Assembly: GCA_045538685.1 (NCBI GenBank)
Contig: JAZSRX010000034.1
Location: 11,111 to 75,110, forward strand
DNA from: Eubacteriales bacterium
GTDB taxonomy: Bacteria; Bacillota; Clostridia; Oscillospirales; CAG-272
Direction: 5' to 3'
Length of the DNA stretch: 64,000 bases
This document shows, one piece after another, positions 1 through 25,391 of this stretch. Position 1 is the first letter of the stretch; every line of letters starts with the position of its first letter. The notes beneath the pieces are model-generated. The model had not been told where the DNA came from and ran no database searches. It saw only the letters and a program-made list of their open reading frames with translations. Made by a program: the position numbers and the translations under genes.

Positions 1-995
1 ATCAGGCGGAACACTCCGACCGTGCATGGCTTGTCCTCTCCGCAAAGCTCGGAAAGCTTTTCTAATATCCTGTCTGCAATATATGCCTTTCTTGTGTCAT
101 TGCTGTCAACTATTGCACCGATAAGATTCTGCGGCACACCGTCGAAGTTTGCAAGGCACTGCTTTGTGTCCTTTGGCAGACAGTATCCACCGTAGCCAAA
201 GCTTGGGTTGTTATAATAAAAACCTATTCGCTCGTCAAGAGAGACACCCTTGATTATGTGAGATGTGTCAAGCCCGTGGCTCTCTGCATATGTATCAAGC
301 TCGTTGAAAAATGCCACTCTCATAGCAAGATATGTGTTGGAGAAGAGCTTTATCGCCTCTGCCTCGGCATATCCTGTAATCATTATGGGAACATCCTTCT
401 TAATTGCCGAGCTGCTCAGCATTTCGGCAAAGCACTCTGCCGCAGAATACATTTCACCGTCGCCCTTTGGCACACCCACGATAATTCTGGAAGGGTAAAG
501 GTTGTCGTAAAGTGCCTTTGACTCACGAAGGAACTCGGGCGAGAACAAAAGCTTTTTATGTCGACTTTTCTCGCTTAACTCCTCCATAAAGCCGATGGGA
601 ATTGTGCTTTTGATAACAACAACCGCCAGAGGATTATATTCTGCAATGCGGGAGACGGTATTCTCAACTATCGAAGTGTCGAATTTTTTGTTATTTTCAT
701 CATAGCTGGTAGGAACGGCAATAACAACAAAATCCGCCTTTTCCACAGCCCCCTTCATATCCTGAGTTGCAAAAAGGTTAAGCTCTTCTTCTGCAAAATA
801 CCTTTCAATATACTCGTCTTTTATAGGCGACTTTCTTCTGTTTATCTGATCTGTTTTCTCTTTTACTATATCAACGGCATACACTTTATGCCTTCTTGAA
901 AGAAGAGTGGCTATGGACAGTCCCACATATCCCATACCCACAACGGCGACGGTAATATCTCCGCCGTTAAAGCATTGCTTTTCACTGTGTAGCAT
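1..995 (-). CDS. ugd: UDP-glucose 6-dehydrogenase, N-terminal ~331 codons (gene runs off the left edge)
   Basis: Absent from the ORF track because it is open at the window edge. My minus-strand translation from ATG 995-993 gives MLHSEKQCFNGGDITVAVVGMGYVGLS (Rossmann GxGxxG) ... NPSFGYGGYCLPKDTKQ (catalytic-Cys motif of UDP-glucose/GDP-mannose dehydrogenases). No stop down to position 1. Confidence 0.85.
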   Translation of the reverse strand, partial: MLHSEKQCFNGGDITVAVVGMGYVGLSIATLLSRRHKVYAVDIVKEKTDQINRRKSPIKDEYIERYFAEEELNLFATQDMKGAVEKADFVVIAVPTSYDENNKKFDTSIVENTVSRIAEYNPLAVVVIKSTIPIGFMEELSEKSRHKKLLFSPEFLRESKALYDNLYPSRIIVGVPKGDGEMYSAAECFAEMLSSSAIKKDVPIMITGYAEAEAIKLFSNTYLAMRVAFFNELDTYAESHGLDTSHIIKGVSLDERIGFYYNNPSFGYGGYCLPKDTKQCLANFDGVPQNLIGAIVDSNDTRKAYIADRILEKLSELCGEDKPCTVGVFRL

Positions 996-1011
996 TTCTA
1001 TATCCTTTTCC

Positions 1012-2352
1012 TTACTTTTTGTTTACGTAAAATCCGTCGCCAATGTCAACCGACAGATGCTTTAAGCCGCCGTTCATTATGAAAAGGCAGTTGCGACAGA
1101 ATTCGGGAAGCTTGCCTTTTTCAAGGAACATTTTGCGAAGATTTACATACTGCTCGCCGTTCCAGATCTGCATAAAATCCTTGTCAAGCATATCAATATG
1201 GTGCAAAACGTCAATACAGCAAACGATAATCTGTCCCTTGGCGGTAATCATCATATTGTTCCATACCAGGTCACAGATTCCCTGACAGTTAAATTTCGAC
1301 TCAACAAGATTAACCTTGTCATAGTACAGCTCGCCTCGCTTTGAGGTCTTTGCCACCCGTTCTCTCAAAGAGCAAAGCTCCTCTTCGGATATGGTGGTGG
1401 GATAGGAGGAAATGATCTTTGCCTCCTCCTTTTCGTCTCCGCCCTCGCCCTCAAGGAATACATCGGGATAAACTATCTCTATTCCCTTTTCCTTGGCATA
1501 GGCAATTGCCTCGCTCATACAGCGGCGAAGGGTTGCGGGATAGCACATAACGTCATCATAGTAATTGTTGATATATCCGTTTATGCCGAGACGGGAGAAC
1601 ATAATTCTGTTAAAGCCGTGCTCTACGGCATATTCCACAAGCATCTTTGCGTCGTAAATATTCTGTCGCATTGATACAACGGCAAGTGTCATATGAGTGT
1701 CGGGACAGTTCTTACGGAATTTATCTATATTTGCAGTCACCTTGTCAAAATCAAGGTTTCTTCTTATCTTGTCGTATATTTCCTTTCTCGGTGAGTCGAA
1801 GGAAACGGTTATAGAGTTGAAAATATCCGCATTTTTCAGCACTCCCTCGGGAAGCACCGACATATTTGTATTTGTGGAAACACGAATACCAAACTCCTTA
1901 TAGGTTTCAAGAACACTTACTATATTGGGAAGCAGGAAGGGCTCGCCGTTGCCGTGTAAAACGATTTCTTCAACGTAAGGAAAAATGGGAAGAAGCTTTG
2001 AAAAAATGTCATCCGACAGATTTACCGCATCCTGATTTCTCTTGTAATAGTGAAGACACATAATACACTCGGCATTGCAAATCGAGGTATGCTCAAGCTG
2101 AAGCACCATAGGAAAATGCCTGTAAACCGTTCTTTTGTTCACAAGCTCGTATGCGGCTAAAATACGATTGTACTCCTTTGCAAGAGCATAATTTTTCTCT
2201 TCTCTTGCAAGCTCTCTCAGCCGATATGCACTTTCCTCGTCTTTTATGTAAACGGAATTTGCTCCCGAAGGTGAGGTGTAGATAATCTCCCTCTCCTCGC
2301 CCGAAAGCATTTCCCAAAGTTTCTTTATATTGTCTTTTGTCAATTCAATCAT
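1012..2352 (-). CDS. Radical SAM/SPASM-type enzyme, long form (446 aa)
   Basis: CxxxCxxC triad in HTSICNAECIMCLH; LHGNGEPF; C-terminal Cys block CQGICD...IVCCID...EFCRNCLF; ~85 aa N-terminal extension. Confidence 0.85.
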   Translation of the reverse strand: MIELTKDNIKKLWEMLSGEEREIIYTSPSGANSVYIKDEESAYRLRELAREEKNYALAKEYNRILAAYELVNKRTVYRHFPMVLQLEHTSICNAECIMCLHYYKRNQDAVNLSDDIFSKLLPIFPYVEEIVLHGNGEPFLLPNIVSVLETYKEFGIRVSTNTNMSVLPEGVLKNADIFNSITVSFDSPRKEIYDKIRRNLDFDKVTANIDKFRKNCPDTHMTLAVVSMRQNIYDAKMLVEYAVEHGFNRIMFSRLGINGYINNYYDDVMCYPATLRRCMSEAIAYAKEKGIEIVYPDVFLEGEGGDEKEEAKIISSYPTTISEEELCSLRERVAKTSKRGELYYDKVNLVESKFNCQGICDLVWNNMMITAKGQIIVCCIDVLHHIDMLDKDFMQIWNGEQYVNLRKMFLEKGKLPEFCRNCLFIMNGGLKHLSVDIGDGFYVNKK

Positions 2353-2370
2353 TGTTTTTTCCTCGGTTTA

Positions 2371-3186
2371 TTATTTCTGATCCTGCCGTTTTATCGGCTT
2401 ATCAACAGTCCAATCGGACAAAGTGGCCTTTTTGCTGACCGACCACGTTACAGTTTCGGGCACTCCGCAATAGGAACAGCAGGAGTGAGGTGAGGATAAA
2501 AATTCAATTACCCTCGCACCGTCTAAATCTGCGTCAAAAATATTAAGCTTTGACTCGCTCATATCCATTTTAAAATCAAAGTATTCTTCCGCCGCGTCCT
2601 GAAGCTGAGCAAGACAGCAATAGCTTATGTATTCTCCGCACAGGATATAGCAGTTTTTTGAGCCGCAGCTCTCCCAGGCGGTTTTTGCATCAGACAACGG
2701 CTCTGAAAGAAGTCTTTTTCGAAACTCGGTTATTGGCTCTGAAAGGTAAAACAGTGCCTTGTTCTGCCGAAGCTTCGAGATAAGCTTGTCCTTTATTTTT
2801 GAGGTTGGGGCATACTGTGATATATCGAAAATTGCCCCCTCGCCTGCCAGGGAAAGAATCACAGAATCATCAAGATTAATAATCGGCAGACCGTTTGTAA
2901 CCAGCTTTATTTCTGATTTCGGGAAGGTTTTTCTCGTAAGCTTTACAAAGCTTACTATCTCGGGGTGCAAAAGCGGCTCGCCACCGAGAAGTCTGATAAC
3001 CTCTATGTTTTCGAAAAGAGAGGAGAGACGCAAAATACCCTTTTCAAACTCGCCAATGTCTAAAAAGCACTCTCGCTCTACGTTGGAAAGATGAGAACAG
3101 CATTTGCATTTCAGATTACAGTGCTTTACAATCGGTATTTCAATATAGGGCAAAATCGGTTTTATTTTTTCTTTCACTATTCTCAT
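2371..3186 (-). CDS. Radical SAM enzyme, short form (271 aa)
   Basis: IVKHCNLKCKCCSH triad, LLGGEPLLHPE, C-terminal Cys cluster (CGSKNCYILC...YCC...HSCCSYCG). Confidence 0.8.
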   Translation of the reverse strand: MRIVKEKIKPILPYIEIPIVKHCNLKCKCCSHLSNVERECFLDIGEFEKGILRLSSLFENIEVIRLLGGEPLLHPEIVSFVKLTRKTFPKSEIKLVTNGLPIINLDDSVILSLAGEGAIFDISQYAPTSKIKDKLISKLRQNKALFYLSEPITEFRKRLLSEPLSDAKTAWESCGSKNCYILCGEYISYCCLAQLQDAAEEYFDFKMDMSESKLNIFDADLDGARVIEFLSSPHSCCSYCGVPETVTWSVSKKATLSDWTVDKPIKRQDQK

Positions 3187-3203
3187 CTCCTTTCTTCAAT
3201 AAA

Positions 3204-4673
3204 TCAATTTCCGGGTTTGATTTTCAAAAACTGCAGCTGCCCGGTCTCTGCCAGAACGCAACCGAGACAGCACTCGGGAAGATAGCCCGAATAAAAGATT
3301 TCACGCATTTTTCGGGATATTTCTCCGTTCCATATTTCTTTAAAATCTGTATTTTGATTAATTTGTCCGGTTTTATATATTCTGCGGCTGCAACAAACAC
3401 TTGCACTTCCGTCAAGGGCAATGTATGCCTGATTTAACAGCCAATCGCAAATTCCGAGACATCTAACCTTTGAGGGCTTTATTTCAAGCTTTTTGTCGGT
3501 ATTCTGACCAAGCTTTTTATACAGCTCTTTTTCTTCCTCATACATAATTTTTTCTTTTCCGTCGGGACTTTCGGCGGTTATGCTGTTCATTAAAAGAAAC
3601 TCTTTTTCTACCGCCTCATTCCACTCTCCTGCCCCCTCTGCAAAGGGTACGGGGCAGATAACCTCAATGCCGATTTCCCGTCCTCGTTTATATGCCAGCT
3701 GACAGAAATAATTTAAAACCAAGGGATAGTTTGACATTGCGTCTCTTTCGTTTCTTAACACACTATTGGGTGTCATATTGTGGAATATCACCTGATTTAC
3801 ATTAACCGACCTTGCAAAATCCACTATTTTTTCAAGCTCTGTTATGTTCTGTCGCATCAGCACAACGGTTATTTCTTTATACAAATCGGGACAGCGACGG
3901 GACAAAAGCTCTATATTGGAGCATACATCTTCAAACTTTAAGCCACGCCTTATGTATTCAAAGGTCTCTTTTGTTCCACCGTCAAGGGAAATCTGAATAT
4001 TGGAAAAATGTCTGTCTATCAGGTCAAGACGCTTCCCGTCAAGCAGGGACAAATTTGTTGTGGCGGATATTTTCACACCGTACATAGCATATCTTTCAAT
4101 CACGTTTGAAATTTCGGGGTGCAAAAGCGGCTCGCCCATTCCCTGAAGCCCCACAACATTACAGAACCTTAATGTCGGCTCAATATTTGATATCATATCA
4201 AAATCCAGATGTCTTGCGTCTTTATTGTGCGTATAAAAATGACTGCACATAACGCATCTTGCATTGCAAAAGCTTGTGGTTTCCATCTGGATATAGGAGG
4301 GCATTCCGCATTGAACCGCCCTGTGCTTTACAAAGTCAAAGAATATAAGCGACTCATTGCAGAGCTTTACCCCTTTTAAGTTGCCGTTAAGAGAAAATCT
4401 TTTAATATCGGATATTATCTCATCTTCAAGGGCAAGAAAAAACAGCTTTGACTCTGTGAGAAAATACAGATTTTTGTCGGGGATGTCAGAAAGCAATGCT
4501 TGGTCATAGACAACACGTGACAAATAGCTTTTGTCAAAAATCATTGATGAGTTTTTTCTGTCATTTTCATTTATCTCGGCTAAGCTTTTTGCGATTTTTA
4601 TGTCCTCGCTTCCGAAAAGCTCTTTTGCTGTGTCAAGCCGTTTATCATCAAGTGTGAATAAATAACTTTGCAT
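3204..4673 (-). CDS. Radical SAM/SPASM-type enzyme, long form (489 aa)
   Basis: The ORF-track start at 4679 is GTG; ATG at 4673 follows AAGAGGTG. TSFCNARCVMCSH, LQGMGEPLLHP, C-terminal CLGICDW...SVCCS...ECCLGCVL; ~130 aa N-terminal extension. Confidence 0.85.
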   Translation of the reverse strand: MQSYLFTLDDKRLDTAKELFGSEDIKIAKSLAEINENDRKNSSMIFDKSYLSRVVYDQALLSDIPDKNLYFLTESKLFFLALEDEIISDIKRFSLNGNLKGVKLCNESLIFFDFVKHRAVQCGMPSYIQMETTSFCNARCVMCSHFYTHNKDARHLDFDMISNIEPTLRFCNVVGLQGMGEPLLHPEISNVIERYAMYGVKISATTNLSLLDGKRLDLIDRHFSNIQISLDGGTKETFEYIRRGLKFEDVCSNIELLSRRCPDLYKEITVVLMRQNITELEKIVDFARSVNVNQVIFHNMTPNSVLRNERDAMSNYPLVLNYFCQLAYKRGREIGIEVICPVPFAEGAGEWNEAVEKEFLLMNSITAESPDGKEKIMYEEEKELYKKLGQNTDKKLEIKPSKVRCLGICDWLLNQAYIALDGSASVCCSRRIYKTGQINQNTDFKEIWNGEISRKMREIFYSGYLPECCLGCVLAETGQLQFLKIKPGN

Positions 4674-4684
4674 ATCCACCTCTT

Positions 4685-6136
4685 TTAGTCAAGGATATCT
4701 TCCATTCTCACAGAGCACACCGAGTCTTCCGACAAAGACGGCTCGCAAGAGCAGAAAATTTTCTCAAACAGCATAAGATAAATGATTTTAAGACAGTTAT
4801 CCATTTCAACCTCGCTGCCCGAATCTCTGTCGGGCTGACCCGTCAGCATAGGATAAAATCTGCTTGTTTTTGCCGCACGAAACAGCTTTTCTTTATTGCT
4901 TTCATCAAAGAGAGAGGAAAGGTTTGTAGAGCCGGGTTGTTTTACCAACCTTTCGGCAACAGTCGGCGACACAAGATTTAATATATAATCCTTATAGTGC
5001 TTTTTGTCTGTGCCGTTAAGCTCTCTGTATGCCGAGACACCGAGAATAAATTTCGCACTGATAAAGGGATATTTCGCTTTTATATCACGGTTTCTTAAGA
5101 AGATACCGTTTTTCTTTAATATGATATAGGTCAGCATCTCATAGGGAAAATAAACCCAAGGATAGTGCTGTTCTATACCCACATAATAATAGGGATCTGC
5201 GTAAAATCTGAGCTGGGAGGACAGAAGCTGGTCTGCTCCCTCACCGAAGAAGGTGGGGTTTTCCTTATAATCAACCATTGCCTCGCTTAGCATATATTGT
5301 AGGAATATTCCTCTCTCGAACACACTGTCTTCAAGCTCACAAACCATTTTGGGAAAGGATTTCAGTATGTCGGGAGTAACCTTTTGTACGGTAAGGTTTA
5401 CATTTGGGTATTCCTTGCATATGGCTTTTACGGCTTCGGTCTCGTCAGAGCCAACCTGAGAGCCAATGCAAAAGCAGTTGATTTTACACTTCGGCTTTAG
5501 CGAGGTGATAATATGCAAAATAAGATTTGAGTCAAAGCCCGAGGAAAGTGCCATATTTATCTCGTCTGTATTGCAAAGCTCCTTTTCAATTTGGCAAGAC
5601 AAAAGCTCGCAGTAATCACCGCCCAAGCCCGTCTCGCGGAACTGACGTTTTTTTACATAATTCCACTCGCCCGACAAGAAATCCCACTTCAAATTATGGA
5701 GTGCCGGAAGCTTTCTGATGCCCGAAATAAGACATCTGTCATCTGTTAGAAAGCCGTTGTAAAGGAACTCGGGAATATAGGAATCATTGATTTTTGGGGT
5801 TATATTTGCCTTTTTTATCAGCTCACGCATACCGAGTGAAAGAACTAAACCGCCCTCGGTTTCGGCAAAATAGAGCGGATGAAAATAGGAAAAGGCATCC
5901 TGAGTGGCAAAGAGACGTTCTGTCTCCTTTTCATACATTACAAGACAGAAAAGGCCGTCAAGCGACTCTACTCTACCGCCGCCCAAAAGATAGGAACAAA
6001 GCTCCTCTGCGGTGAGAATTTCGTTCTCATAATACACTTCTCCCTCATAGACCAGAACACAGCTTTCGTTCTCATAGGTATACTGTCCGTCATAAAATAT
6101 TCGGTTTTTCTGCTTTTCGAAGAATAAATTTTTCAT
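4685..6136 (-). CDS. Asparagine synthase-like (AsnB family) amidotransferase/adenylating enzyme lacking the N-terminal Cys nucleophile
   Basis: 483 aa. PP-loop-like ALSSGFDSNLI (SGGxDS variant) mid-protein, and AsnB-like length and organisation. The N-terminus MKNLFF has no Cys2. Confidence 0.65.
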   Translation of the reverse strand: MKNLFFEKQKNRIFYDGQYTYENESCVLVYEGEVYYENEILTAEELCSYLLGGGRVESLDGLFCLVMYEKETERLFATQDAFSYFHPLYFAETEGGLVLSLGMRELIKKANITPKINDSYIPEFLYNGFLTDDRCLISGIRKLPALHNLKWDFLSGEWNYVKKRQFRETGLGGDYCELLSCQIEKELCNTDEINMALSSGFDSNLILHIITSLKPKCKINCFCIGSQVGSDETEAVKAICKEYPNVNLTVQKVTPDILKSFPKMVCELEDSVFERGIFLQYMLSEAMVDYKENPTFFGEGADQLLSSQLRFYADPYYYVGIEQHYPWVYFPYEMLTYIILKKNGIFLRNRDIKAKYPFISAKFILGVSAYRELNGTDKKHYKDYILNLVSPTVAERLVKQPGSTNLSSLFDESNKEKLFRAAKTSRFYPMLTGQPDRDSGSEVEMDNCLKIIYLMLFEKIFCSCEPSLSEDSVCSVRMEDILD

Positions 6137-6307
6137 AAATAAAGCTTCGGACAGTCCTTTCTTAAAATTTGAAGCAAGGTTTTTAATCTGCCATTTGGGT
6201 GTTGTGGATTTTTGCTTTTGTGATGTTATTGGCTTTTTCCTTTTGGTGTTGTGGGGTATGCTTTTTGTATTGTGGGTTTTGCTTTTTGGTTTTATGGTTT
6301 TGCCGTT
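6137..6307 (-). repeat. C/A-rich (on mRNA strand) intra-operon spacer with 3-4 degenerate ~22-nt direct repeats (AAAAGCA-N4-CCACAA-N-AC)
   Basis: Plus strand reads GGTGTTGTGGATTTTTGCTTTTG / GGTGTTGTGGGGTATGCTTTTTG / TATTGTGGGTTTTGCTTTTTG. This is the only gap longer than 21 nt in the 17-gene operon. Confidence 0.7.
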
Positions 6308-8322: not shown

Positions 8323-8334
8323 TACCTCCAAAGA

Positions 8335-13506: not shown

Positions 13507-13525
13507 TTTCGATTCCTCGCTTATT

Positions 13526-14389: not shown

Positions 14390-15483
14390 TATCTTTTCTC
14401 CAATAAATTTTCTTTGCGAGTAATGTTAAACTCGGCAGTACAAAGCAACCAACAGCCCTCACAGCGACATTCTGCCATTGCTCTTCTCTGTTCGGAATAG
14501 CTCTCCGACATCCATATATCCGGAAGCGATTTTTCCTTCAAGTCGCCCACCGTAGGAAGCGAGGTGCTCCAACAGCTTCTCACCGTAAGGTTGGGCCAAA
14601 TGTAAACCGCCTCGTATCCGCAAAGGCACTGATACTGCCCTCTCGGAATTCGCTTTCCCGTTCTGAAAAAGTCCGAAAAATACTCTAAATACTCTCTCGA
14701 ATTAAGAATTAAGTATCCCTCGTCCTTCATTTCAAGAATCCGCCTGATAACACGCTCGGTCTCACAGGCATCTGTCACAGTAAGCGAGTTCTCGCCGTTA
14801 ATAAAATTGTGATAGGGTGTAAGCTGAACATTTACACCGTCTTTGGTGCATTTTTCTATCAGCTCTATAACGTCTTTTTGATTGTTCTCGGAGAGAACCG
14901 CCGTTACATTAAAAACAAGATCGGGGTGAATTTCTCTGAAACGAAGAACATACTCGTATGACTTCATAACCGACTCAAAATCAATGCCTCGGTTTTCCTT
15001 ATAATGCTCTCTGTCAAAAGAGTCAATGGACATAATTATATATCTCTGTCCCGCCTTATAAACCGACTCTAATTTTTTAGGCAAAAGAATACCGTTGGTA
15101 AGCAAAATCGGCTCTATTTTCCGAGCGACCATACCGCCGATAACCGCCTCTATATCCTTATAAATCAGGGGCTCACCGCCGCTTACCGAGCAGGCCTTAA
15201 CTCCCATTTTTTCAAGTCCGTCAAGAACCGGGAGAATTTCCTCGATGCTTCGCTCTGTAAGCTTGCCCTGATTTCTCGAATAGGCATGCTCACAATAGGC
15301 ACAGTCTGAATTACAACGCATCGTTATTTTGAAAAAGGCATAGCGGATTTTTTCGGGTATGGCTCCGCACCTGTGGCACTTTTCCACCTCGTGTGCGTGA
15401 TTAATAAGCTCACCCGGATATTCCTGTCCGAAATGAGACGCACAAAGACGTTCAATTTCGGTTATAAAGTTTTTATCCTTCAT
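14389..15483 (-). CDS. Radical SAM enzyme with C-terminal Cys-rich (SPASM/twitch-like) region (364 aa)
   Basis: TMRCNSDCAYCEH, VSGGEPLIYKD, C-terminal YQCLCG...RSCW...CRCEGCWLLC. Confidence 0.8.
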   Translation of the reverse strand: MKDKNFITEIERLCASHFGQEYPGELINHAHEVEKCHRCGAIPEKIRYAFFKITMRCNSDCAYCEHAYSRNQGKLTERSIEEILPVLDGLEKMGVKACSVSGGEPLIYKDIEAVIGGMVARKIEPILLTNGILLPKKLESVYKAGQRYIIMSIDSFDREHYKENRGIDFESVMKSYEYVLRFREIHPDLVFNVTAVLSENNQKDVIELIEKCTKDGVNVQLTPYHNFINGENSLTVTDACETERVIRRILEMKDEGYLILNSREYLEYFSDFFRTGKRIPRGQYQCLCGYEAVYIWPNLTVRSCWSTSLPTVGDLKEKSLPDIWMSESYSEQRRAMAECRCEGCWLLCTAEFNITRKENLLEKR

Positions 15484-15493
15484 AAAATGAAAA

Positions 15494-16828
15494 TCACTTT
15501 CTGAGTATATCGTATGTGTTGGTGCTGATGTCCTTTAATGTATCCGCAAGCTTCTTTCCGTCATCCATATTTCCCTCTAAGCAGAGGCAGAAGACCTTCC
15601 ACCAAAGCATTTTTTCATTCTTTGACAGGGGGAAATACTCTTTTTCAAGGAAACGGCAGAAGTTTACATAACGAAGCTCGCCGAAATACTCGCAAACACC
15701 GTCTGTCTCTTCAACCGCAACCGTTCTGCGATTTCTGATGGCATCAAGAATTCCCTCTCTTGTATTCTCCTTGCAGAAGGCAATAGTGTAATGAGTAGGG
15801 AATATACAGCTTTCGTCATCGGCATTTACAATATGGCTGTCCGACTGACCGAGGAAGGCATAGGGACGGTCGATATTTCGCATACATTCAAGGGCGAGAA
15901 GATGCTGCTGCTGGGAAATTATACTGCTTCCCTTAGGCGAACCGCCCACGACCTCAAATGCGTCAACCTTTCCGCTTTCTATATAGCTCTTGATAAGCGA
16001 ATGAGGAGCATCAAGACGTGTCCAATCAAAAATGGGCTTCCAATAGGGATGACAGAGAACGGTAAGACCGCCAAGCTGATGCACCTTGTCCGAAAGCTTG
16101 CAAAGCCGTTCTGTAATCCAACGAAGCTTTTCCTCCCGGGAATTGAACTCGGGAATACTGTCAAGACGATAAAGCTCCTTCGGAACCGGCTCTTCTGCAC
16201 CGAGAGAAATAATATGCATCGGCTGATAATTGCAGGAGAACTCCTCTCCGTTAAGAACGGTAAGCTGTCTGTCAATATAAACCTCCGACAGCATTTCCAG
16301 ATATTTTTTCGCCTGAACAGAGCCCTCATAGTTATTGTGGTCGGTCAGGGCGATATAGTCAAATCCGCTTTTAAGAGCCATACCGATGTGCTGAGAGGGC
16401 TCTTCAAGTCCGTCGGAATATGTGCTGTGCAAATGGGTGTTACCCTTCAAGGGCAGGAGAGGATACATATCCTCTTCAAGTGCGTACACAAAGGTGGTGA
16501 GTATCATTTCCTTATCGCCGCTTTCGTGTCTTTTCCAAATTGCTATCATATAGTCCTGTTCCTCGTTAAATTCGTAGGAGAAGGAAAGCACACCGTCTTT
16601 TGCCGTTACAACAAAGGGATTCTGCTCGGTTGCACTGTTTGCGGCAACCTCATATTCAAGCAGAGGACTTACGAGAACAAAATAATCGCCCTCTAAAACA
16701 AAGTGGGGATATGCGGTAACATACCTGCTTCTTACGGTGATAACCGCCTCTTCGTGTGCCTTTACAATACGGGGACTCAAAACAAAATAATTTTTCTTGT
16801 TTGTCTGGTAATAGGTAGGAATAGACAT
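15494..16828 (-). CDS. PHP-domain metal-dependent phosphoesterase (444 aa)
   Basis: GNTHLHSTYSDG...IALTDHNNYEG (PHP HxH...SDG signature) after a ~125 aa N-terminal domain. Confidence 0.65.
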   Translation of the reverse strand: MSIPTYYQTNKKNYFVLSPRIVKAHEEAVITVRSRYVTAYPHFVLEGDYFVLVSPLLEYEVAANSATEQNPFVVTAKDGVLSFSYEFNEEQDYMIAIWKRHESGDKEMILTTFVYALEEDMYPLLPLKGNTHLHSTYSDGLEEPSQHIGMALKSGFDYIALTDHNNYEGSVQAKKYLEMLSEVYIDRQLTVLNGEEFSCNYQPMHIISLGAEEPVPKELYRLDSIPEFNSREEKLRWITERLCKLSDKVHQLGGLTVLCHPYWKPIFDWTRLDAPHSLIKSYIESGKVDAFEVVGGSPKGSSIISQQQHLLALECMRNIDRPYAFLGQSDSHIVNADDESCIFPTHYTIAFCKENTREGILDAIRNRRTVAVEETDGVCEYFGELRYVNFCRFLEKEYFPLSKNEKMLWWKVFCLCLEGNMDDGKKLADTLKDISTNTYDILRK

Positions 16829-16842
16829 AATTTTTCCTTTCT

Positions 16843-17940
16843 TTAAACGAGAATCAGCAATACCGCGAAGGAAATACTGACACTTAACAGTAAAATCAAG
16901 TATTTAATTTGGTTTCCCGGGAATGTGCCGTGCTCCTGATATTTTGAATACATAACCTGTCTATACAGGGGCTTTACGGTTTTATACTTTATGCAGCCCG
17001 AGATTGTTCCAAGCTTTTCGAACACCGAAAGAAGCTCTATTAAAATCGCCTTAAAAAATCCGATTTTTTCCTTGACAGATGAGTAAACTCCGCCTATCAA
17101 AAGGTGCGAGAGGAACATAATCGGTGACATAAGCAATGCCCAACATCCCACAAAGCAGGTGCAAAGCAGGGAAAGTGCGGTTATCATTATCCAAACCGCT
17201 ATCCAGTTTACGTCGGCAATCAGTCTTTTGGGGTTCGACTTGGCAACAAGAACATTCGACCGTCCGTAGCTTATAAGTCGGGTTGCAACGTCCTTAAAAT
17301 TAAGCCAGGTTTCGTTGCTGTGATAAACAACCGCATCGGGTGCGGACTTAATCACATAACCTGCGTCGCAGATGCGAAAACCGATGTCAACATCCTCTCC
17401 GCCCGGCTTGTTGGGAAAATCGGGGTTAAATCCGCCCGATTTGTCAAATGCCTCTCGCAGAAGAGAAAAGTTGGCGGTTACACCCCAGGAAAGCTCCTCC
17501 TGCTCTAACGGCTGAACAAATGCCGCACACCAAGAGGTTTTTGATATCGCCTTTATAAAGGAATTTTCCCCTCCTTCAAGGATAACAGGGCCACATACCG
17601 CACCGATCTTTTCATCGGTGTATTTTTTTAGATGTTCGTTCAGAATATTGGGTGTTACAACACAGTCGGAGTCGCAATAGAACAGCAGATTGTACTTTGC
17701 ATAAGAGACGCATTTGTTGCGTTTTATCGCCACCGATGAGGGCTCGTAATAATATCTTGCATTATGCTTCTCACAAAGAATCTCAATTGCCGAGGCATCC
17801 TCCTTACCCGAATTGTCAAGCACCACAAGCTCGCTTGGCAAAGGGCAATTTTTCCTTGCCTCATCAAGACTGCAAAACAGACGTTCAAGCAGCTTTACCC
17901 TGCCGTAGCAGACAATCAGAATACTTATTCCGTCAATCAT
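16843..17940 (-). CDS. Membrane-anchored GT2 glycosyltransferase (polyprenyl-phosphate glycosyltransferase-like architecture, 365 aa)
   Basis: ISILIVCYGR...VVLDNSGKED...YCDSDCVV, followed by hydrophobic C-terminal segments (WIAVWIMITALSLLCTCFVGCWALLM, YLILLLSVSISFAVLLILV). Confidence 0.75.
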   Translation of the reverse strand: MIDGISILIVCYGRVKLLERLFCSLDEARKNCPLPSELVVLDNSGKEDASAIEILCEKHNARYYYEPSSVAIKRNKCVSYAKYNLLFYCDSDCVVTPNILNEHLKKYTDEKIGAVCGPVILEGGENSFIKAISKTSWCAAFVQPLEQEELSWGVTANFSLLREAFDKSGGFNPDFPNKPGGEDVDIGFRICDAGYVIKSAPDAVVYHSNETWLNFKDVATRLISYGRSNVLVAKSNPKRLIADVNWIAVWIMITALSLLCTCFVGCWALLMSPIMFLSHLLIGGVYSSVKEKIGFFKAILIELLSVFEKLGTISGCIKYKTVKPLYRQVMYSKYQEHGTFPGNQIKYLILLLSVSISFAVLLILV

Positions 17941-19808
17941 TTTACACCTCCCAGAAGAGCAAAAGCTATGGCGATGCCAAATGAAATCACAAGAGAAATA
18001 AGAGCTGCTTCAAAAACAATTCTGTTTGTATTTGCCCGAGCGACGATTTTGTCAGAATATATGCCGTAGACCATATTTCTCGGCACCCTTTTAATGCCTA
18101 GCGAGGCGGTACGCATTGTCAGCTTGTAGGAAAGACGGCTTCCCAGCTCCACACCCGAGGAACCCGACCGCACAAGGCGGATTACCGCCGAGAAAATAAG
18201 GTTCAAAATGATAAACGAAGCGGCAAAAACGAATAACTTTGGCTCAAGGAAATAACCAACCGCGGCGAGTATCAGGAACAAGAATGTCATCAATGACTGA
18301 ACAGGCAAAAGCTTCATAAAGCAGTCGCTTCGTCTGTGATAAAGCTCGGTTACCGACAGGGCGGAAAACCTGGTATATTCCTTCTTCAATGCCGATTTGT
18401 CCTCTATCTCAACCGATAGCTTGCTGTCTGTAACGGTTTTCACCTCGGAGCAGTGTGCCAGGGCGGAGATAAGAGTTTTCGAAACGGTGGATTTATGGTA
18501 TCTTCCGAAATCCGCCTTGTTGAAAATATAAACCGAGAAAAAGCCACGCATAGAGCGATTTTTTGTCTGGAAATAATCACAAAGAGAAGATATCCTTTCT
18601 TGCGTATCCGAAGAGACGGGATATCTTACCTCCACACACTCTTCCTCATCAAAATAGGGCAACAGCCACTTTACATCAAGCTTTATCTTAATGGGAGAAA
18701 CTATGACGAAGGCACTTCCCTTTTCACCTTCGGGAAGCTGATTTTCGGGGGTGATGTTTATGTATCTGATTCCCTTTTCCCTGAATGCCCGCTTTGCGAT
18801 TTTTTTGCAGTTTATCTTGAAAATAACCGCCCCGATAAGATGAATGATATACTCTATGTGGAATTTCAGTGTGATGTAAAATGCATACAGCAGAGATATG
18901 ACATAAACCGAGAAGGAAAGAAGATTTTCGCTTTCCGACGGCACAAGTGTGATACAGCACAAAACGGGAATCAAAAGCAGGTAAATAAAGTCAAAGGGTA
19001 CGTAGAAATAGGATGTAAAAATGTCCTTTTGCTTATTGAGCTTCATCATTCCCCAGAAAAGAATTTCAAACAGATAGCCGATAAAAAGCACAAGGGAAAT
19101 GGTGGGATTTACTTTCAGGAAAATCGCCGAAAAGGCAAAGAGCGAAAGCACACCCTCCACCGCCGCACAGCAGTAAATCAGGCCACGGGTTACCGACTTT
19201 GCCGATCTTACAAAGGTTTTTGTTTCGCTTACTATGTCATTTTCGTAGTCCATATACTGATGAATGAGAATATATCTGATTCCGTAAACGAAGACGAAAA
19301 CATTAATGAGGGCGAACAGCAAAAGGTCAACTTCAAAGATAAACGGAATTACCAAAAGCTGAACATTTCTCTGGCAGAAGGATGCGGTTATAAGCCCCAA
19401 TACACCCCTTTCCTTAAAGCGAAGCGGTTTAAAGGAATAGAAAATGCCGAAAAGGTATGCAACAAGGGCAAAAATCATAAATTCGGGAGTGAATTTAATG
19501 AATGCCGCCGATAAAAAATGAATAATTGTAACAACGACAAAAGCCGCAACACCCACACCGATACCGGTGGAATTAAAAGCGTTGCGTTTGCCTGCTATTT
19601 TATCCTGCTCTACGTCGCTTAAATCATTGGCAAGATAGCCGAGAGCAAGATAGGTTACTGTGTACAAAAGGAAGAAGCAGAAAAGAGGAAGAGCCGATGC
19701 GGCACTTCTGCCGTTAAGCAGAGAAAAGAGTATAAAAACAGCTATGGACAAAGGCAGCTTGGAACCAAACCACTCTGTAACTCTGAAAATGCTTTTCAAT
19801 ATCCTCAT
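17937..19808 (-). CDS. UbiA-family prenyltransferase fused to an unassigned C-terminal soluble-plus-TM region (623 aa)
   Basis: The ORF track starts at GTG 19814; ATG at 19808 lies 6 nt after AAGGAGA. The N-terminal half is multi-TM and carries both Asp-rich motifs (NDLSDVEQD, DYEND). The C-terminal ~300 aa have no motif I recognise. Confidence 0.7.
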   Translation of the reverse strand: MRILKSIFRVTEWFGSKLPLSIAVFILFSLLNGRSAASALPLFCFFLLYTVTYLALGYLANDLSDVEQDKIAGKRNAFNSTGIGVGVAAFVVVTIIHFLSAAFIKFTPEFMIFALVAYLFGIFYSFKPLRFKERGVLGLITASFCQRNVQLLVIPFIFEVDLLLFALINVFVFVYGIRYILIHQYMDYENDIVSETKTFVRSAKSVTRGLIYCCAAVEGVLSLFAFSAIFLKVNPTISLVLFIGYLFEILFWGMMKLNKQKDIFTSYFYVPFDFIYLLLIPVLCCITLVPSESENLLSFSVYVISLLYAFYITLKFHIEYIIHLIGAVIFKINCKKIAKRAFREKGIRYINITPENQLPEGEKGSAFVIVSPIKIKLDVKWLLPYFDEEECVEVRYPVSSDTQERISSLCDYFQTKNRSMRGFFSVYIFNKADFGRYHKSTVSKTLISALAHCSEVKTVTDSKLSVEIEDKSALKKEYTRFSALSVTELYHRRSDCFMKLLPVQSLMTFLFLILAAVGYFLEPKLFVFAASFIILNLIFSAVIRLVRSGSSGVELGSRLSYKLTMRTASLGIKRVPRNMVYGIYSDKIVARANTNRIVFEAALISLVISFGIAIAFALLGGVK

Positions 19809-19884
19809 AGCCACTCTCCTTTCCCGAAAATCAAAGTGAATAATAAAAATTTTAATTTAAAAAATTTTCAAGATGCTTTTTTAA

Positions 19885-19912
19885 AGATAAATTTATTTTA
19901 AAATAAATATCT
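19885..19912. promoter_or_regulatory. 28-nt AT-rich near-perfect palindrome overlapping the predicted transcription start of the rSAM operon (candidate operator)
   Basis: AGATAAATTTATTTT|AAAATAAATATCT, immediately downstream (minus strand) of the -10 box. Confidence 0.3.
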
Positions 19913-19917
19913 ATAAA

Positions 19918-19946
19918 AGTATAGCACGAATAAGTCGAATTGTCAA
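19918..19946 (-). promoter_or_regulatory. Sigma-A-type promoter of the 17-gene operon
   Basis: Minus strand reads TTGACA (19946-19941), a 17-nt spacer, then TATACT (19923-19918). An AT-rich leader of ~95 nt runs to the AAGGAGA RBS. Confidence 0.65.
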
Positions 19947-25379: not shown

Positions 25380-25391
25380 GATTATTTAATT

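What the first reader, a model, noticed from the sequence alone, without database searches (positions are those of the whole stretch)
1..19946. Seventeen-gene single-promoter operon in which eight genes are radical-SAM enzymes embedded in glycan/polyprenyl chemistry
Seen: 17 consecutive minus-strand genes run from 19808 down to 1 and continue past the edge. They are separated by 21 nt or less or overlap by 1-14 nt; the single exception is the 171-nt spacer at 6137-6307. One consensus promoter lies upstream (TTGACA-17-TATACT, 19918-19946). Eight products carry an N-terminal CxxxCxxC triad plus a GGEP-like motif: CNAECIMC, CNLKCKCC, CNARCVMC, CNLNCRGC, CNLNCKGC, CNLNCVMC, CNAQCIMC and CNSDCAYC. 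Five of them have SPASM-type C-terminal Cys blocks. Interleaved with these are three GT-A/GT2 transferases (DxD motifs seen), a DegT-type PLP aminotransferase, an AsnB-like enzyme, a PHP phosphoesterase, a UbiA-type prenyltransferase fusion, a DUF4062 protein and UDP-glucose dehydrogenase. Established: single rSAM enzymes tailor sugars (BtrN, DesII, AprD4-type chemistry), and multiple rSAMs occur in RiPP pathways. Here, however, 8 of 17 genes are rSAMs in a nucleotide-sugar/glycosyltransferase context. No B12 domain, precursor-peptide ORF, Wzx/Wzy or ABC exporter is in view. I cannot name a characterised pathway that matches. Inference: the operon builds a polyprenyl-linked glycoconjugate whose sugars undergo repeated radical-mediated tailoring; product and function are unknown.
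Basis: partly seen in the sequence, partly recalled or inferred. Interest (0 to 1): 0.9.

Follow-up and report, generated by a model that had tools for sequence, protein, structure and literature searches.

The report
Eight-radical-SAM prenyl-glycoconjugate operon
This is a real operon of at least 24 genes from an uncharacterised gene-cluster family of gut and sediment anaerobes that most likely builds a membrane-anchored, isoprenoid-linked xylose/glucuronate glycoconjugate, and its unusually many radical-SAM enzymes are coupled to a divergent UbiA prenyltransferase, which points to oxygen-free chemistry nobody has described.

Summary
Seventeen tightly packed minus-strand genes lie behind the best promoter-like site in the region.

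A near-identical contig continues it with Ugd, two GT2s, UDP-xylose synthase, a PaaK-like ligase, an A-PCP protein, DUF2798 and an FAD reductase. Relatives end with a polyprenyl synthase.

It belongs to a recurrent but uncharacterised cluster family found in Lachnospiraceae, Eubacterium, Olsenella, Fibrobacterales, a Methanomethylophilaceae archaeon and metagenomes. The family is defined by a divergent UbiA clade, a PaaK-like ligase, membrane GT2s and 3-7 rSAMs. The window's eight is the most seen.

In other members UbiA is fused in one polypeptide to orthologues of two of the window's rSAM types, and also to a geranylgeranyl-reductase-like domain, to glycosyltransferases and to DUF2798.

No curated NCBIfam model, PADLOC defence model or paper I could search matches. 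No precursor peptide and no Wzx/Wzy/ABC exporter appears.

Best reading: a dedicated isoprenoid-anchored Xyl/GlcA glycoconjugate tailored anaerobically by twitch/SPASM rSAMs. The UbiA acceptor and the rSAM substrates (sugar, head group or lipid) remain unresolved.

The parts
19918..19946 (-). Promoter-like site TTGACA-17-TATACT with a TG extension, about 110 nt upstream of the UbiA start.
   Evidence: best of 54 hits in 1-20000, 11 of 12 matches. Function not tested.
17937..19808 (-). Long-form UbiA-family prenyltransferase (623 aa). It has a UbiA core of about 320 aa, then a soluble alpha/beta domain of about 160 aa, then 3 extra transmembrane helices.
   Evidence: PF01040 scores 38.1 bits. 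The motifs NDxxDxxxD, RFKERG and HQxxDxxND are invariant. The AF2 model has pLDDT 84.5, and its core is closest to AfUbiA 4tq4 (TMt 0.70) and DGGGP synthase. Only 21 homologues of the long form were found.
16843..17940 (-). GT2 glycosyltransferase with C-terminal transmembrane helices (GT2tm type, 365 aa).
   Evidence: PF00535, PF13632 and PF13506. Transmembrane segments at about 240-287 and 343-365. Paralogue of the two GT2s to the left of the window.
15494..16828 (-). PHP-domain phosphoesterase (444 aa) with an N-terminal domain of about 125 aa and unknown function.
   Evidence: PF02811 scores 33.9 bits. The CehA/McbA domain scores 62.5 bits, below its cut-off of 80.
14389..15483 (-). Radical-SAM/SPASM enzyme rSPASM364 (CNSDCAYC, GGEP). 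Orthologues are found fused to UbiA.
   Evidence: PF04055 scores 84.5 bits and PF13186 scores 30.9 bits. Best PDB match is BlsE at E 1e-13, then MoaA. The fusion protein P0222 is 33% identical over 356 aa.
13526..14389 (-). Soluble GT2 glycosyltransferase (287 aa), conserved across the cluster family.
   Evidence: PF00535 scores 99.4 bits. It is 48-69% identical in L003 and L006-L013.
12022..13506 (-). Group-A radical-SAM/twitch enzyme rSPASM494 (CNAQCIMC). It is inserted as a pair with DegT compared with relatives.
   Evidence: PF04055 and PF13186. It is 30-32% identical to the paralogues at 3204-4679 and 1012-2352. It is absent from L003/L006.
10842..12035 (-). DegT/DnrJ/EryC1-type PLP sugar aminotransferase.
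   Evidence: PF01041 scores 275 bits. Best NCBIfam match is PseC at 169 bits, below its cut-off. The start at 12035 follows the gene call on L001.
10031..10849 (-). DUF4062-domain protein (272 aa).
   Evidence: PF13271 scores 79.5 bits. It is conserved in the long-UbiA relatives L003/L006 at 50% identity. There are no NCBIfam or PADLOC hits.
9121..10038 (-). Radical-SAM/SPASM enzyme rSPASM305 (CNLNCVMC).
   Evidence: PF04055 scores 55 bits and PF13186 scores 47.3 bits. An orthologue is present in the archaeal locus L007 at 37% identity.
8335..9099 (-). Group-B short radical-SAM enzyme rS254 (CNLNCKGC, GGEP).
   Evidence: PF04055 and PF13353. It is 40% identical to rS267 and 32% identical to rS271.
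7528..8331 (-). Group-B short radical-SAM enzyme rS267 (CNLNCRGC, GGEP).
   Evidence: PF04055 and PF13353. Best PDB match is 7wzv, deposited only as a '4Fe-4S cluster-binding' protein, at E 1.4e-8.
6308..7531 (-). GT2 glycosyltransferase with a C-terminal extension (407 aa).
   Evidence: PF00535 scores 75 bits. Orthologues occur in L003/L006 and L007.
6137..6307 (-). 171-nt A/C-rich intergenic spacer. Relatives carry a 480-aa GLUG-motif lipoprotein gene at this position.
4685..6136 (-). AsnB-like ATP-dependent amide-forming enzyme (483 aa) without a Cys2 nucleophile.
   Evidence: PF00733 scores 38 bits and PF13537 scores 25.8 bits. The N-terminus reads MKNLFF. The block AsnB-rSPASM-short rSAM-rSPASM is conserved in L006.
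3204..4679 (-). Group-A radical-SAM/twitch enzyme rSPASM491 (CNARCVMC). Orthologues are found fused to UbiA.
   Evidence: PF04055 scores 59.5 bits and PF13186 scores 31.3 bits. The fusion protein P0220 is 36% identical over 438 aa, E 3e-94.
2371..3186 (-). Group-B short radical-SAM enzyme rS271 (CNLKCKCC, GGEP).
   Evidence: PF04055 and PF13353. Paralogy is shown.
1012..2352 (-). Group-A radical-SAM/twitch enzyme rSPASM446 (CNAECIMC).
   Evidence: PF04055 and PF13186. The AF2 model has pLDDT 71 and a confident N-terminal domain. The profile aligns to the BtrN twitch region at E 8e-5. Twelve close homologues were found.
1..995 (-). N-terminal 331 codons of UDP-glucose 6-dehydrogenase. The gene runs off the window edge.
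   Evidence: Sequence. The full 416-aa copy on L005 scores 318.5 bits for TIGR03026, above its cut-off of 189.8.

Best explanation
The region is the promoter-proximal two-thirds of an operon of at least 24 genes. The operon belongs to an uncharacterised, horizontally shared cluster family of strict anaerobes. It most likely makes a membrane-anchored, isoprenoid-linked glycoconjugate at the cytoplasmic face of the membrane.

**Proposed steps.** Steps 1-3 rest on family assignments shown here. Steps 4-6 are inferred.
1. A cluster-encoded polyprenyl synthase makes a dedicated isoprenoid, and a geranylgeranyl-reductase-like flavoprotein partly saturates it. Both genes were seen only in relatives or just beyond the window edge.
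2. A highly divergent UbiA-family enzyme joins the isoprenoid to a still unknown small acceptor, giving a lipid-anchored primer. The PHP phosphoesterase removes a phosphate.
3. Ugd and a UXS-type UDP-glucuronate decarboxylase supply UDP-GlcA and UDP-Xyl. Three membrane-anchored GT2s and two soluble GT2s build the glycan on the anchored primer.
4. Twitch/SPASM rSAM enzymes work in physical association with UbiA and carry out O2-independent tailoring:
   - carbinol oxidation or deamination coupled to the DegT aminotransferase (BtrN/BtrS or DesI/DesII logic);
   - uronate decarboxylation (BlsE logic);
   - possibly epimerisation or deoxygenation.

   The paralogue sets (three long, three short) would act at different positions.
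5. The Cys2-less AsnB-like enzyme, the PaaK-like ligase and the PPTase-A-PCP protein add amide- or ester-linked acyl or aminoacyl groups.
6. The four-helix DUF2798 protein, which is fused to UbiA elsewhere, may help move the product across the membrane.
For: **Gene content of the window.** Pfam assignments are.

**Leftward extension.** A 99.5-100% identical contig (L005) continues with Ugd, GT2, GT2, a 314-aa SDR, a 396-aa protein, A-PCP (1194 aa), DUF2798 and an FAD oxidoreductase.
- The SDR is a UXS. It scores 275 bits (E 9e-81) to human UXS1, against 130 bits or less for other SDRs.
- The 396-aa protein is PaaK-like.
- The A domain scores 343 bits, above its cut-off of 317.

**Isoprenoid genes.** Relatives end with polyprenyl_synt and carry geranylgeranyl-reductase-family genes (129 bits).

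**Recurrent family.** 22 of 27 loci of at least 12 kb that hold this UbiA clade contain at least one rSAM, and 13 contain at least three.

**Gene fusions within the clade.**
- UbiA with an orthologue of rSPASM491 (P0220).
- UbiA with an orthologue of rSPASM364 (P0222).
- A geranylgeranyl-reductase-like FAD domain with UbiA (P0253).
- UbiA with GT4/GT1 (P0259).
- UbiA with DUF2798 (P0185, P0228).

These are shown. The two rSAM fusion genes sit in typical clusters.

**Support for sugar-directed rSAMs.**
- rSPASM494 and DegT are inserted as a unit.
- The best PDB relatives are BlsE, BtrN (twitch region), viperin and MoaA; DesII appears by fold comparison. All act on small molecules.
- Homologues of the group-A core, about 335 aa long, lie in AglB/STT3, DegT and Ugd glycan clusters.

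**Other.** The GT2tm proteins have C-terminal transmembrane helices. The UbiA core is structurally nearest to the archaeal lipid-type enzymes AfUbiA and DGGGP synthase.
Against: - The UbiA acceptor is unknown. No curated UbiA subfamily model hits, and the PDB profile matches are weak (AfUbiA E 2e-3, Rv3806c E 7e-3).
- No rSAM reaches any NCBIfam equivalog cut-off, so the reaction types are analogies only.
- UbiA-rSAM fusions fit rSAM action on the head group or the prenyl chain as well as on sugars.
- Many relatives pair UbiA with a PaaK-like ligase, NUDIX and a U32 (UbiU/TrhP-like) pair. One relative also has a catechol-type O-methyltransferase. This hints at an aromatic or nucleobase head group rather than a plain sugar phosphate.
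- No flippase, polymerase, ligase or GT-C gene is seen.
- The polyprenyl synthase has not been seen in this organism, because the contig view ends.
- Everything here is computational.
Confidence: 0.55

Rival explanations
1. The family makes a prenylated aromatic, quinone-like lipid that is then glycosylated. A PaaK-like ligase activates an aryl acid and UbiA prenylates the ring. U32 enzymes hydroxylate it without O2, and an O-methyltransferase may follow. rSAMs build, decarboxylate or otherwise modify the head group. The GT2s then add Xyl/GlcA.
For: - The block PaaK-like-NUDIX-UbiA-U32a-U32b-rSAM-rSAM recurs in L008, L013, L034, L035, L037, L039, L043 and L049.
- U32a matches TrhP (89.8 bits) and UbiU (76.1 bits).
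- L098 adds a Methyltransf_3 O-methyltransferase next to the U32 pair and a UbiA-rSAM fusion.
- The PaaK-like gene is present in nearly every cluster, including this organism's.
Against: - The window's own cluster has no U32 pair, NUDIX or O-methyltransferase.
- No UbiA/MenA/COQ2-type NCBIfam model hits.
- The UbiA core is structurally closest to lipid-acceptor enzymes.
- No ring-forming or UbiD/UbiX-type genes are present.
- U32 and PaaK-like scores are far below their equivalog cut-offs.
Confidence: 0.2
2. The rSAMs tailor the isoprenoid chain itself by cyclisation, C-C coupling, adenosylation or methylation. This would parallel GrsA/GrsB, Tes/GDGT-MAS and HpnH. The product would be a modified isoprenoid lipid whose head group is glycosylated by HpnI-like lipid GT2s.
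For: - UbiA-rSAM and reductase-UbiA fusions exist.
- Geranylgeranyl-reductase and polyprenyl synthase genes lie in the clusters.
- Several paralogues could act on repeated isoprene units.
- There are weak hits to Tes (58 bits), HpnH (55 bits) and HpnI.
- GDGT-MAS appears among the fold matches.
Against: - Tes and HpnH scores are far below their cut-offs of 450 and 225, and are no better than generic MoaA hits.
- Core homologues of the group-A rSAMs occur in glycan clusters that have no UbiA.
- The rSAM-DegT pairing points to a sugar or cyclitol substrate.
Confidence: 0.15
3. This is an ordinary surface-polysaccharide locus (capsule, teichuronic acid or S-layer glycan) on the housekeeping undecaprenyl-phosphate carrier, with unusually many tailoring enzymes.
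For: - Ugd, UXS, DegT, AsnB-like and five GT2s are typical polysaccharide-locus content.
- The cluster is shared across phyla in the gut, as surface-glycan loci often are.
Against: - No initiating phosphoglycosyltransferase, Wzx/Wzy, ABC transporter, ligase or LCP gene appears in the window, its extension or relatives.
- The cluster carries its own UbiA, polyprenyl synthase and reductase.
- UbiA is fused to rSAMs and GTs.
- No EPS or teichuronic NCBIfam model reaches its cut-off.
Confidence: 0.07
4. It is a RiPP or glycopeptide pathway. The multiple rSAM/SPASM maturases would modify a ribosomal or PCP-bound peptide that is then glycosylated and prenylated.
For: - Multiple rSAM/SPASM enzymes are typical of RiPP pathways.
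- The top full-length fold match of rSPASM446 is SuiB, then SkfB.
- An A-PCP protein and an AsnB-like (lasso-cyclase-like) enzyme are present.
Against: - No conserved small ORF was found in 21 loci.
- There are no PqqD/RRE, protease or transporter hits.
- The SuiB match has a TM-score of only 0.43.
- Sequence-level PDB hits are all small-molecule rSAMs.
- The N-terminal domain has a beta-alpha-beta-beta-alpha-alpha order, unlike the RRE order as I recall it.
Confidence: 0.03
5. It is an anti-phage or nucleotide-modifying conflict system, with viperin-like rSAMs, DUF4062, PHP and NUDIX.
For: Generic pVip hits of 24-66 bits for eight of the ten proteins scanned. DUF4062 and NUDIX occur in conflict systems (my own knowledge).
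Against: - The viperin NCBIfam score is 54 bits or less against a cut-off of 180.
- DUF4062 and PHP have no PADLOC hit.
- The bulk of the operon is glycosyltransferases and sugar-nucleotide enzymes.
Confidence: 0.02

Closest known systems
Bacteriohopanepolyol side-chain pathway (HpnH rSAM, HpnG, HpnI GT2, HpnK, HpnJ rSAM)
   Same: An isoprenoid lipid is elaborated at the membrane by radical-SAM enzymes together with a lipid-directed GT2. Weak HpnH and HpnI hits occur.
   Different: - There is no squalene-hopene cyclase.
- HpnH scores 55 bits against a cut-off of 225, and HpnI scores 19.6 against 310.
- This cluster has UbiA, UXS/Ugd, 5 GT2s and 8 rSAMs, whereas the hopanoid pathway has 2 rSAMs.
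Mycobacterial decaprenyl-phospho-arabinose / arabinogalactan module (UbiA-family Rv3806c, phosphatase Rv3807c, DprE1/E2, GT2 GlfT2)
   Same: A UbiA-family enzyme, a phosphoesterase and a GT2 lie adjacent. Rv3806c is one of only two PDB sequences that the UbiA profile detects below E 0.01.
   Different: - The match is weak (E 7e-3).
- The phosphatase is PHP, not PAP2.
- There are no DprE1/E2 genes and no GT-C arabinosyltransferases.
- rSAMs are present here instead.
- The fold match is better to AfUbiA and DGGGP synthase.
Radical-SAM sugar and aminocyclitol tailoring enzymes (BtrN with BtrS; DesI with DesII; BlsE; AprD4)
   Same: - Twitch-type auxiliary-cluster region (BtrN alignment).
- An rSAM sits next to a DegT aminotransferase.
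- A UDP-GlcA supply is present, as for BlsE's substrate.
- BlsE is the best PDB hit for rSPASM364 and rSPASM446 and effectively the best for rSPASM494.
   Different: - Those pathways use one rSAM each, on soluble NDP-sugar or cyclitol substrates in antibiotic clusters.
- Here there are eight, some of whose orthologues are fused to a membrane prenyltransferase.
- All scores are far below the equivalog cut-offs (BlsE 61 bits against 400).
Archaeal ether-lipid synthesis and GDGT tailoring (GGPP synthase, DGGGP synthase of the UbiA family, geranylgeranyl reductase, Tes, GrsA/B rSAMs)
   Same: The clusters combine a polyprenyl synthase, a UbiA enzyme, a geranylgeranyl-reductase-family gene and several rSAMs. 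The UbiA core resembles DGGGP synthase in fold (TMt about 0.6). One member lies in a Methanomethylophilaceae genome.
   Different: - There are no GGGP synthase or CarS genes.
- Tes scores 58 bits against a cut-off of 450.
- The clusters are rich in GT2, UXS and Ugd.
- They are found mostly in Bacteria.
O2-independent ubiquinone pathway (UbiA, UbiU/UbiV U32 hydroxylases, UbiT)
   Same: In many relatives UbiA is followed directly by a pair of U32-family genes.
   Different: - The window's cluster lacks the U32 pair.
- There are no UbiD/X, UbiE/G or UbiT genes.
- UbiU scores 76 bits against a cut-off of 440.
Arn (L-Ara4N lipid A modification) pathway
   Same: It shares the logic of Ugd, then a UDP-GlcA decarboxylase, then a DegT aminotransferase, then a membrane GT2.
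   Different: - The decarboxylase is UXS-type, not ArnA.
- The ArnC model scores 21.5 bits against a cut-off of 529.
- There are no ArnT, ArnD or ArnE/F genes.

Membership tests
Radical SAM superfamily (PF04055) | An N-terminal CxxxCxxC cluster motif and a Pfam score above the gathering threshold. | tested here: met
   All eight ORFs score 37.5-84.5 bits against a cut-off of 29.5. The motifs were located.
SPASM / twitch subgroup | A C-terminal auxiliary Fe-S domain: PF13186, with a 7-Cys pattern for full SPASM and fewer Cys for twitch. | tested here: inconclusive
   PF13186 is above its cut-off in five proteins. The three long paralogues have only a 6-Cys pattern, C-x3-C...CC...C-x2-C, and align to the BtrN twitch region at E 8e-5. 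The number of clusters is not testable here.
NCBIfam NF033640 twitch domain-containing rSAM (N_Twi_rSAM) | A whole-protein score of at least 170 bits. | tested here: not met
   The three long paralogues score 96-106 bits.
BlsE cytosylglucuronate decarboxylase (TIGR04466) | A score of at least 400 bits. | tested here: not met
   The best score is 61 bits, for rSPASM364. The PDB match covers only the N-terminal rSAM core.
Prokaryotic viperin (NF038283; PADLOC pVip) | A score of at least 180 bits across the full-length viperin core. | tested here: not met
   NCBIfam scores are 54 bits or less. PADLOC gives partial matches of 24-66 bits.
Lipid-tailoring rSAMs: Tes (NF045702) and HpnH (TIGR03470) | Scores of at least 450 bits (Tes) and 225 bits (HpnH). 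| tested here: not met
   Scores are 58.5 and 55.3 bits for rSPASM364.
UbiA prenyltransferase superfamily (PF01040) | A Pfam score above 34.2 bits, two Asp-rich motifs and a fold of about 9 transmembrane helices. | tested here: met
   The score is 38.1 bits. NDxxDxxxD and DxxND are invariant in 17 sequences. The AF2 core matches AfUbiA with TMt 0.70.
Decaprenyl-phosphate phosphoribosyltransferase (Rv3806c type) | Sequence membership in that UbiA subfamily and use of PRPP as donor. | tested here: inconclusive
   The profile-to-PDB match has E 7e-3 over 122 residues only. No NCBIfam model hit. Donor use is not testable here.
RiPP biosynthetic cluster | A co-located precursor-peptide gene and an RRE/PqqD-like recognition domain. 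| tested here: not met
   No conserved small ORF was found in 21 loci. There was no PqqD Pfam hit. The N-terminal domain fold is uninformative.
Wzx/Wzy- or ABC-dependent polysaccharide locus | An initiating phosphoglycosyltransferase plus a flippase and polymerase, or an ABC exporter. | tested here: not met
   None was found in the window, in the L005 extension or up to the cluster ends of relatives. Genes further left in this genome were not seen.
O2-independent ubiquinone pathway | A UbiU/UbiV U32 pair, UbiT and ring-tailoring methyltransferases alongside UbiA. | tested here: not met
   These are absent from the window's cluster. A U32 pair is present only in relatives, at 76 bits against a cut-off of 440.
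UDP-glucuronate decarboxylase (UXS), 314-aa gene left of the window | Full-length similarity to characterised UXS that is clearly higher than to other SDR sugar enzymes. | tested here: met
   It scores 275 bits (E 9e-81) to human UXS1, against 130 bits or less for others. Activity was not tested.
Anti-phage defence systems (PADLOC-DB 2.0) | A match to a defence-system model beyond a generic domain hit. | tested here: not met
   Only generic pVip hits were found. DUF4062 and PHP gave none.

The most novel reading that the evidence does not exclude
The cluster family encodes a previously unknown class of membrane lipid or cofactor. A divergent UbiA would work as one machine with radical-SAM enzymes (fused into a single polypeptide in some organisms). 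Together they would create, without oxygen, a new prenylated head group, possibly aromatic, nucleoside-derived or a high-carbon sugar. That head group would then be xylosylated or glucuronylated and aminoacylated. Gut Clostridia and methanogenic archaea would exchange the system. The window's eight rSAMs would then include several reaction types new to the superfamily.
Probability: 0.3. Interest if true: 0.88.

Novelty: new variant of a known kind. Interest (0 to 1): 0.72.

Why it matters
Radical-SAM tailoring of sugars and lipids is known almost entirely from pathways with one or two such enzymes. This operon holds eight rSAMs in three paralogue sets. Orthologues of two of its rSAM types are fused to a membrane prenyltransferase elsewhere.

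That combination gives a concrete, cloneable system for finding new anaerobic C-H functionalisation chemistry on membrane-bound substrates. It also gives a route to an uncharacterised envelope glycolipid, or lipid cofactor, of gut anaerobes.

The family is present in Lachnospiraceae, Eubacterium, Olsenella, Fibrobacterales and a gut methanogen. Its product could therefore matter for host or phage recognition and for the membrane biology of organisms that are hard to study.

Tried and rejected
**Curated protein families.** NCBIfam scans of all cluster proteins found no model at its cut-off, apart from generic NDP-sugar dehydrogenase and amino-acid adenylation domains.

**Defence systems.** PADLOC gave only generic viperin-like hits, so the defence reading was rejected.

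**Literature.** Nine full-text searches found nothing relevant. The terms combined UbiA, radical SAM, SPASM, U32, NUDIX, geranylgeranyl reductase and the PDB codes 7WZV and 7X0B.

**Precursor peptides.** A search of 21 loci found only an XRE-type HTH regulator and fragments.

**RNA elements.** Rfam on the whole window gave no hit at gathering scores.

**Exact look-ups.** Look-ups of the window's rSPASM446 and of P0057 (A-PCP) found nothing on record. The left boundary in this genome therefore remains unseen beyond the FAD-oxidoreductase gene.

**Organism name.** No source name was available. The GTDB representative scan did not recover the source genome itself.

**Structure.**
- Fold search of the long UbiA model gave UbiA-fold hits only. 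The soluble domain at residues 340-500 had no significant match.
- Fold search of rSPASM446 did not separate peptide-type from sugar-type rSAMs. SuiB, SkfB, DesII and BlsE all gave TM-scores of 0.35-0.43.

**GT2 motif.** A (Q/R)xxRW synthase motif is present only in one GT2 to the left of the window, which is uninformative.

Full report

Yes. The ORF scan gives 16 complete minus-strand ORFs between 19808 and 1012, plus one that runs off the left edge.

Neighbours are 21 nt or less apart, or overlap by 1-14 nt. The 14-nt overlap uses the DegT start at 12035 called on the near-identical contig L001. The one exception is the 171-nt spacer at 6137-6307, which is A/C-rich and carries no ORF.
- Pfam places all eight candidate proteins in PF04055 above the gathering score. 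Five also have PF13186 SPASM and three have PF13353.
- The interleaved genes are three GT2s, a DegT aminotransferase (275 bits), a weak Asn_synthase, a PHP phosphoesterase, a UbiA protein, a DUF4062 protein and the N-terminus of a UDP-glucose dehydrogenase.
- TTGACA-17-TATACT at 19946-19918 is the best promoter-like match in the 20 kb, with 11 of 12 matches and a TG extension. No convincing minus-strand terminator lies inside the row. That the row is a single transcript cannot be shown from sequence.
- Upstream lie a terminator-like hairpin, spoVFA/B-like genes and pheST. The rest of the window is ordinary Clostridia-type chromosome.

**2. The operon is larger than the window shows.**

A metagenomic contig whose proteins are 99.5-100% identical (L005) continues past the edge. 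It carries, in order:

1. Ugd (416 aa)
2. two more membrane GT2s
3. a 314-aa SDR
4. a 396-aa protein
5. a 1194-aa protein
6. DUF2798
7. the start of an FAD oxidoreductase

These are shown.

- The SDR is a UDP-glucuronate decarboxylase. It scores 275 bits (E 9e-81) to human UXS1, against 130 bits or less for any other SDR.
- The 396-aa protein is a PaaK-like adenylating enzyme.
- The 1194-aa protein has an amino-acid adenylation domain (343 bits, above its cut-off of 317) and a PCP. It also has a possible N-terminal PPTase region and an unassigned C-terminal region of about 420 aa.
- In two relatives the cluster ends A-PCP, then polyprenyl synthase, then a TetR regulator or unrelated genes.

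The unit therefore has at least 24 genes. It supplies UDP-GlcA and UDP-Xyl, and very probably its own isoprenoid.

**3. It belongs to a recurrent, uncharacterised cluster family.**

*The long form is rare.* The 623-aa long UbiA has only 21 homologues among 5.8 billion clustered proteins. A profile search of 1.84 billion representatives found 84 at E of 1e-30 or better and 1086 at 1e-10 or better. Nearly all are a short form of about 330 aa.

*Loci recovered.* They came from species-representative genomes and metagenomes. Named sources are Lachnospira, Eubacterium, Schaedlerella, Olsenella, Lachnospiraceae, Bacillota, Fibrobacterales and a Methanomethylophilaceae archaeon.

*Shared gene set.* Most of these loci share a recognisable set:

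- UbiA
- the PaaK-like ligase
- two or three membrane GT2s
- the 287-aa soluble GT2
- often UXS and Ugd
- several rSAM/SPASM genes

*Two architectures.*

- Long-UbiA type: the window, L003/L006 and the archaeal L007. It carries PHP, DUF4062, the 407-aa GT2 and the A-PCP protein.
- Commoner type: [HTH]-GT2-GT2-PaaK-NUDIX-UbiA-U32-U32-rSAM-rSAM. It often adds an APH-type kinase, a geranylgeranyl-reductase-family gene (129 bits) and an AsnB-like gene.

*rSAM counts.* Of 27 loci of at least 12 kb with this UbiA clade, 22 hold at least one rSAM and 13 hold at least three. These are lower bounds, because each view is limited to +/-10 kb. The next-richest locus, L040, has seven, counting a B12-rSAM. 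The window has eight. The nearest sequenced relative of the long type (47% UbiA identity) has four. The window gained rSPASM494 plus DegT as one insert and rSPASM305 plus rS254 plus rS267 as another. It lost a GLUG-motif lipoprotein gene at the site of the 171-nt spacer.

**4. What the rSAMs are.**

They fall into four groups:

- Three long paralogues of 446, 491 and 494 aa, 30-33% identical. Each has an N-terminal extension of 80-135 aa and a 6-Cys tail.
- Three short paralogues of 254, 267 and 271 aa, 32-40% identical.
- rSPASM364.
- rSPASM305.

None reaches any NCBIfam cut-off. The best is the twitch subfamily NF033640, at 96-106 bits against 170.

At sequence level their closest solved relatives all act on small molecules:

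- BlsE, E 1e-13 for rSPASM364.
- BtrN. The profile of rSPASM446 orthologues aligns specifically to its twitch region, E 8e-5.
- Viperin.
- MoaA.

The AF2 model of rSPASM446 (pLDDT 71) matches SuiB, SkfB, DesII and BlsE with TM-scores of only 0.35-0.43. This does not discriminate between enzyme types.

Homologues of the long-paralogue core, about 335 aa, lie in glycan clusters without UbiA:

- AglB/STT3 N-glycosylation loci of Woesearchaeota.
- DegT, B12-rSAM and split-transketolase loci of Magnetococcales.
- A DegT-rich locus of a Planctomycetales MAG.

This context, together with the rSPASM494-DegT pair, favours sugar-directed chemistry of the BtrN/BtrS or DesI/DesII kind for at least that group. 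This is inference.

**5. The key new evidence: coupling to UbiA.**

Within the same UbiA clade there are natural fusion proteins:

- UbiA with an orthologue of rSPASM491: P0220, 847 aa, 36% identity over 438 aa.
- UbiA with an orthologue of rSPASM364: P0222, 726 aa, 33% over 356 aa.
- A geranylgeranyl-reductase-like FAD domain with UbiA: P0253.
- UbiA with GT4/GT1 and GDSL: P0259.
- UbiA with TPR repeats and GT41: P0322.
- UbiA with DUF2798: P0185 and P0228.

The two rSAM fusion genes sit in typical clusters:

- L097: PHP, HTH, GT2, GT2, PaaK, GT2, rSAM, APH, the fusion, three rSAMs, UXS.
- L098/L099: PaaK, rSAM, U32, U32b, O-methyltransferase, rSAM, the fusion, three GT2s.

At least two of the window's rSAM types therefore act on the substrate or the product of the prenyl-transfer step. 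The reductase, glycosyltransferases and DUF2798 belong to the same membrane process.

**6. What UbiA does remains open.**

- The Asp-rich motifs are intact.
- No curated subfamily model hits.
- The profile detects only AfUbiA (E 2e-3) and the phosphoribosyltransferase Rv3806c (E 7e-3) in the PDB.
- The AF2 core (pLDDT 84.5) is nearest to AfUbiA and DGGGP synthase.
- The extra soluble domain at residues 340-500 has no detectable relative.

The neighbours point in different directions:

- PHP, DUF4062, NUDIX, an APH kinase and, in L040, a Vut_1 transporter hint at a phosphorylated or nucleotide-derived acceptor.
- PaaK-like, the U32 pair and an O-methyltransferase hint at an aromatic one.

**7. 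Rivals considered.**

- RiPP pathway: no conserved small ORF and no RRE hit. I rate it unlikely.
- Defence system: only generic hits. Unlikely.
- Conventional polysaccharide locus: no initiating transferase, flippase, polymerase or exporter anywhere in view. The cluster carries its own isoprenoid genes. Unlikely.
- rSAM tailoring of the isoprenoid chain, or a prenylated aryl/quinone-like head group: neither is excluded.

**8. Verdict.**

It is a dedicated isoprenoid-linked Xyl/GlcA glycoconjugate pathway with radical tailoring, but the rSAM substrates and the UbiA acceptor are unknown. I found no characterised counterpart in the curated libraries or in the literature I could search. I rate it a new variant of a known kind (a lipid-linked glycoconjugate biosynthetic cluster). 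There is a real chance, about 0.3, that the product class and several rSAM reactions are new.

Noticed in passing
window 6137-6307: The 171-nt spacer is strongly A/C-rich and G/T-poor, with repeated 'CAAAAAGC'-like units and no ORF. It sits exactly where relatives L003/L006 carry a 480-aa Cys-repeat/GLUG lipoprotein gene, so it may be a deletion scar or an unstructured RNA linker.
   Followed up: partly
L007 (CALUHR010000013.1, Methanomethylophilaceae archaeon) 1-14064: A gut methanogen MAG carries the rare long-UbiA type of the cluster. It has GT2c, rSPASM305, GT2b, UXS, PaaK-like, two GT2s, Ugd, rSPASM446 (48% identity), long UbiA and GT2a. This implies exchange between Bacteria and Archaea.
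   Followed up: partly
L040 1639-13527: An environmental relative has NUDIX, a Vut_1 (YhhQ-type) transporter, an rSAM, UbiA, then five more rSAMs including a B12-binding one, and a GT8-esterase fusion. That makes seven rSAMs in 12 kb with no GT2, UXS or PaaK genes.
   Followed up: partly
L098 2501-4778 and L008 3319-4922: A pair of U32-family genes (best matches TrhP and UbiU, prephenate-dependent hydroxylases) directly follows or neighbours UbiA in many relatives. In L098 a Methyltransf_3 catechol-type O-methyltransferase follows the pair. Neither is present in the window's cluster.
   Followed up: partly
L003 6499-9340: Two phage-type integrase genes and a MazE-like antitoxin gene lie immediately upstream of the NUDIX-UbiA start of the related cluster. 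This suggests the cluster can sit on a mobile island.
   Followed up: no
window 1-64000 (for example upstream of pheS at about 25380-25460): No Rfam family reaches its gathering score anywhere in the 64 kb, not even a T-box leader ahead of pheST.
   Followed up: no
window 37708-39165, 45403-48168, 48356-50863: Two BspA-type leucine-rich-repeat proteins and a Listeria-Bacteroides-repeat protein (921 aa) are encoded here. These are probably surface proteins and are unrelated to the operon.
   Followed up: no
window 7528-8331 (rS267): Its best solved relative is PDB 7wzv/7wzx/7x0b (E 1.4e-8, nearly full length). The entry is deposited only as a '4Fe-4S cluster-binding domain-containing protein'. 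I could not find what that enzyme does, and it may hold the best clue to the short rSAM group.
   Followed up: partly
L013 1373-1597, L035 5683-5976, L034 4212-4397: A small XRE-type HTH regulator gene is conserved just upstream of the GT2-GT2-PaaK-NUDIX-UbiA block in the common cluster type. The window has no equivalent in its roughly 600-nt AT-rich leader at 19809-20428.
   Followed up: no
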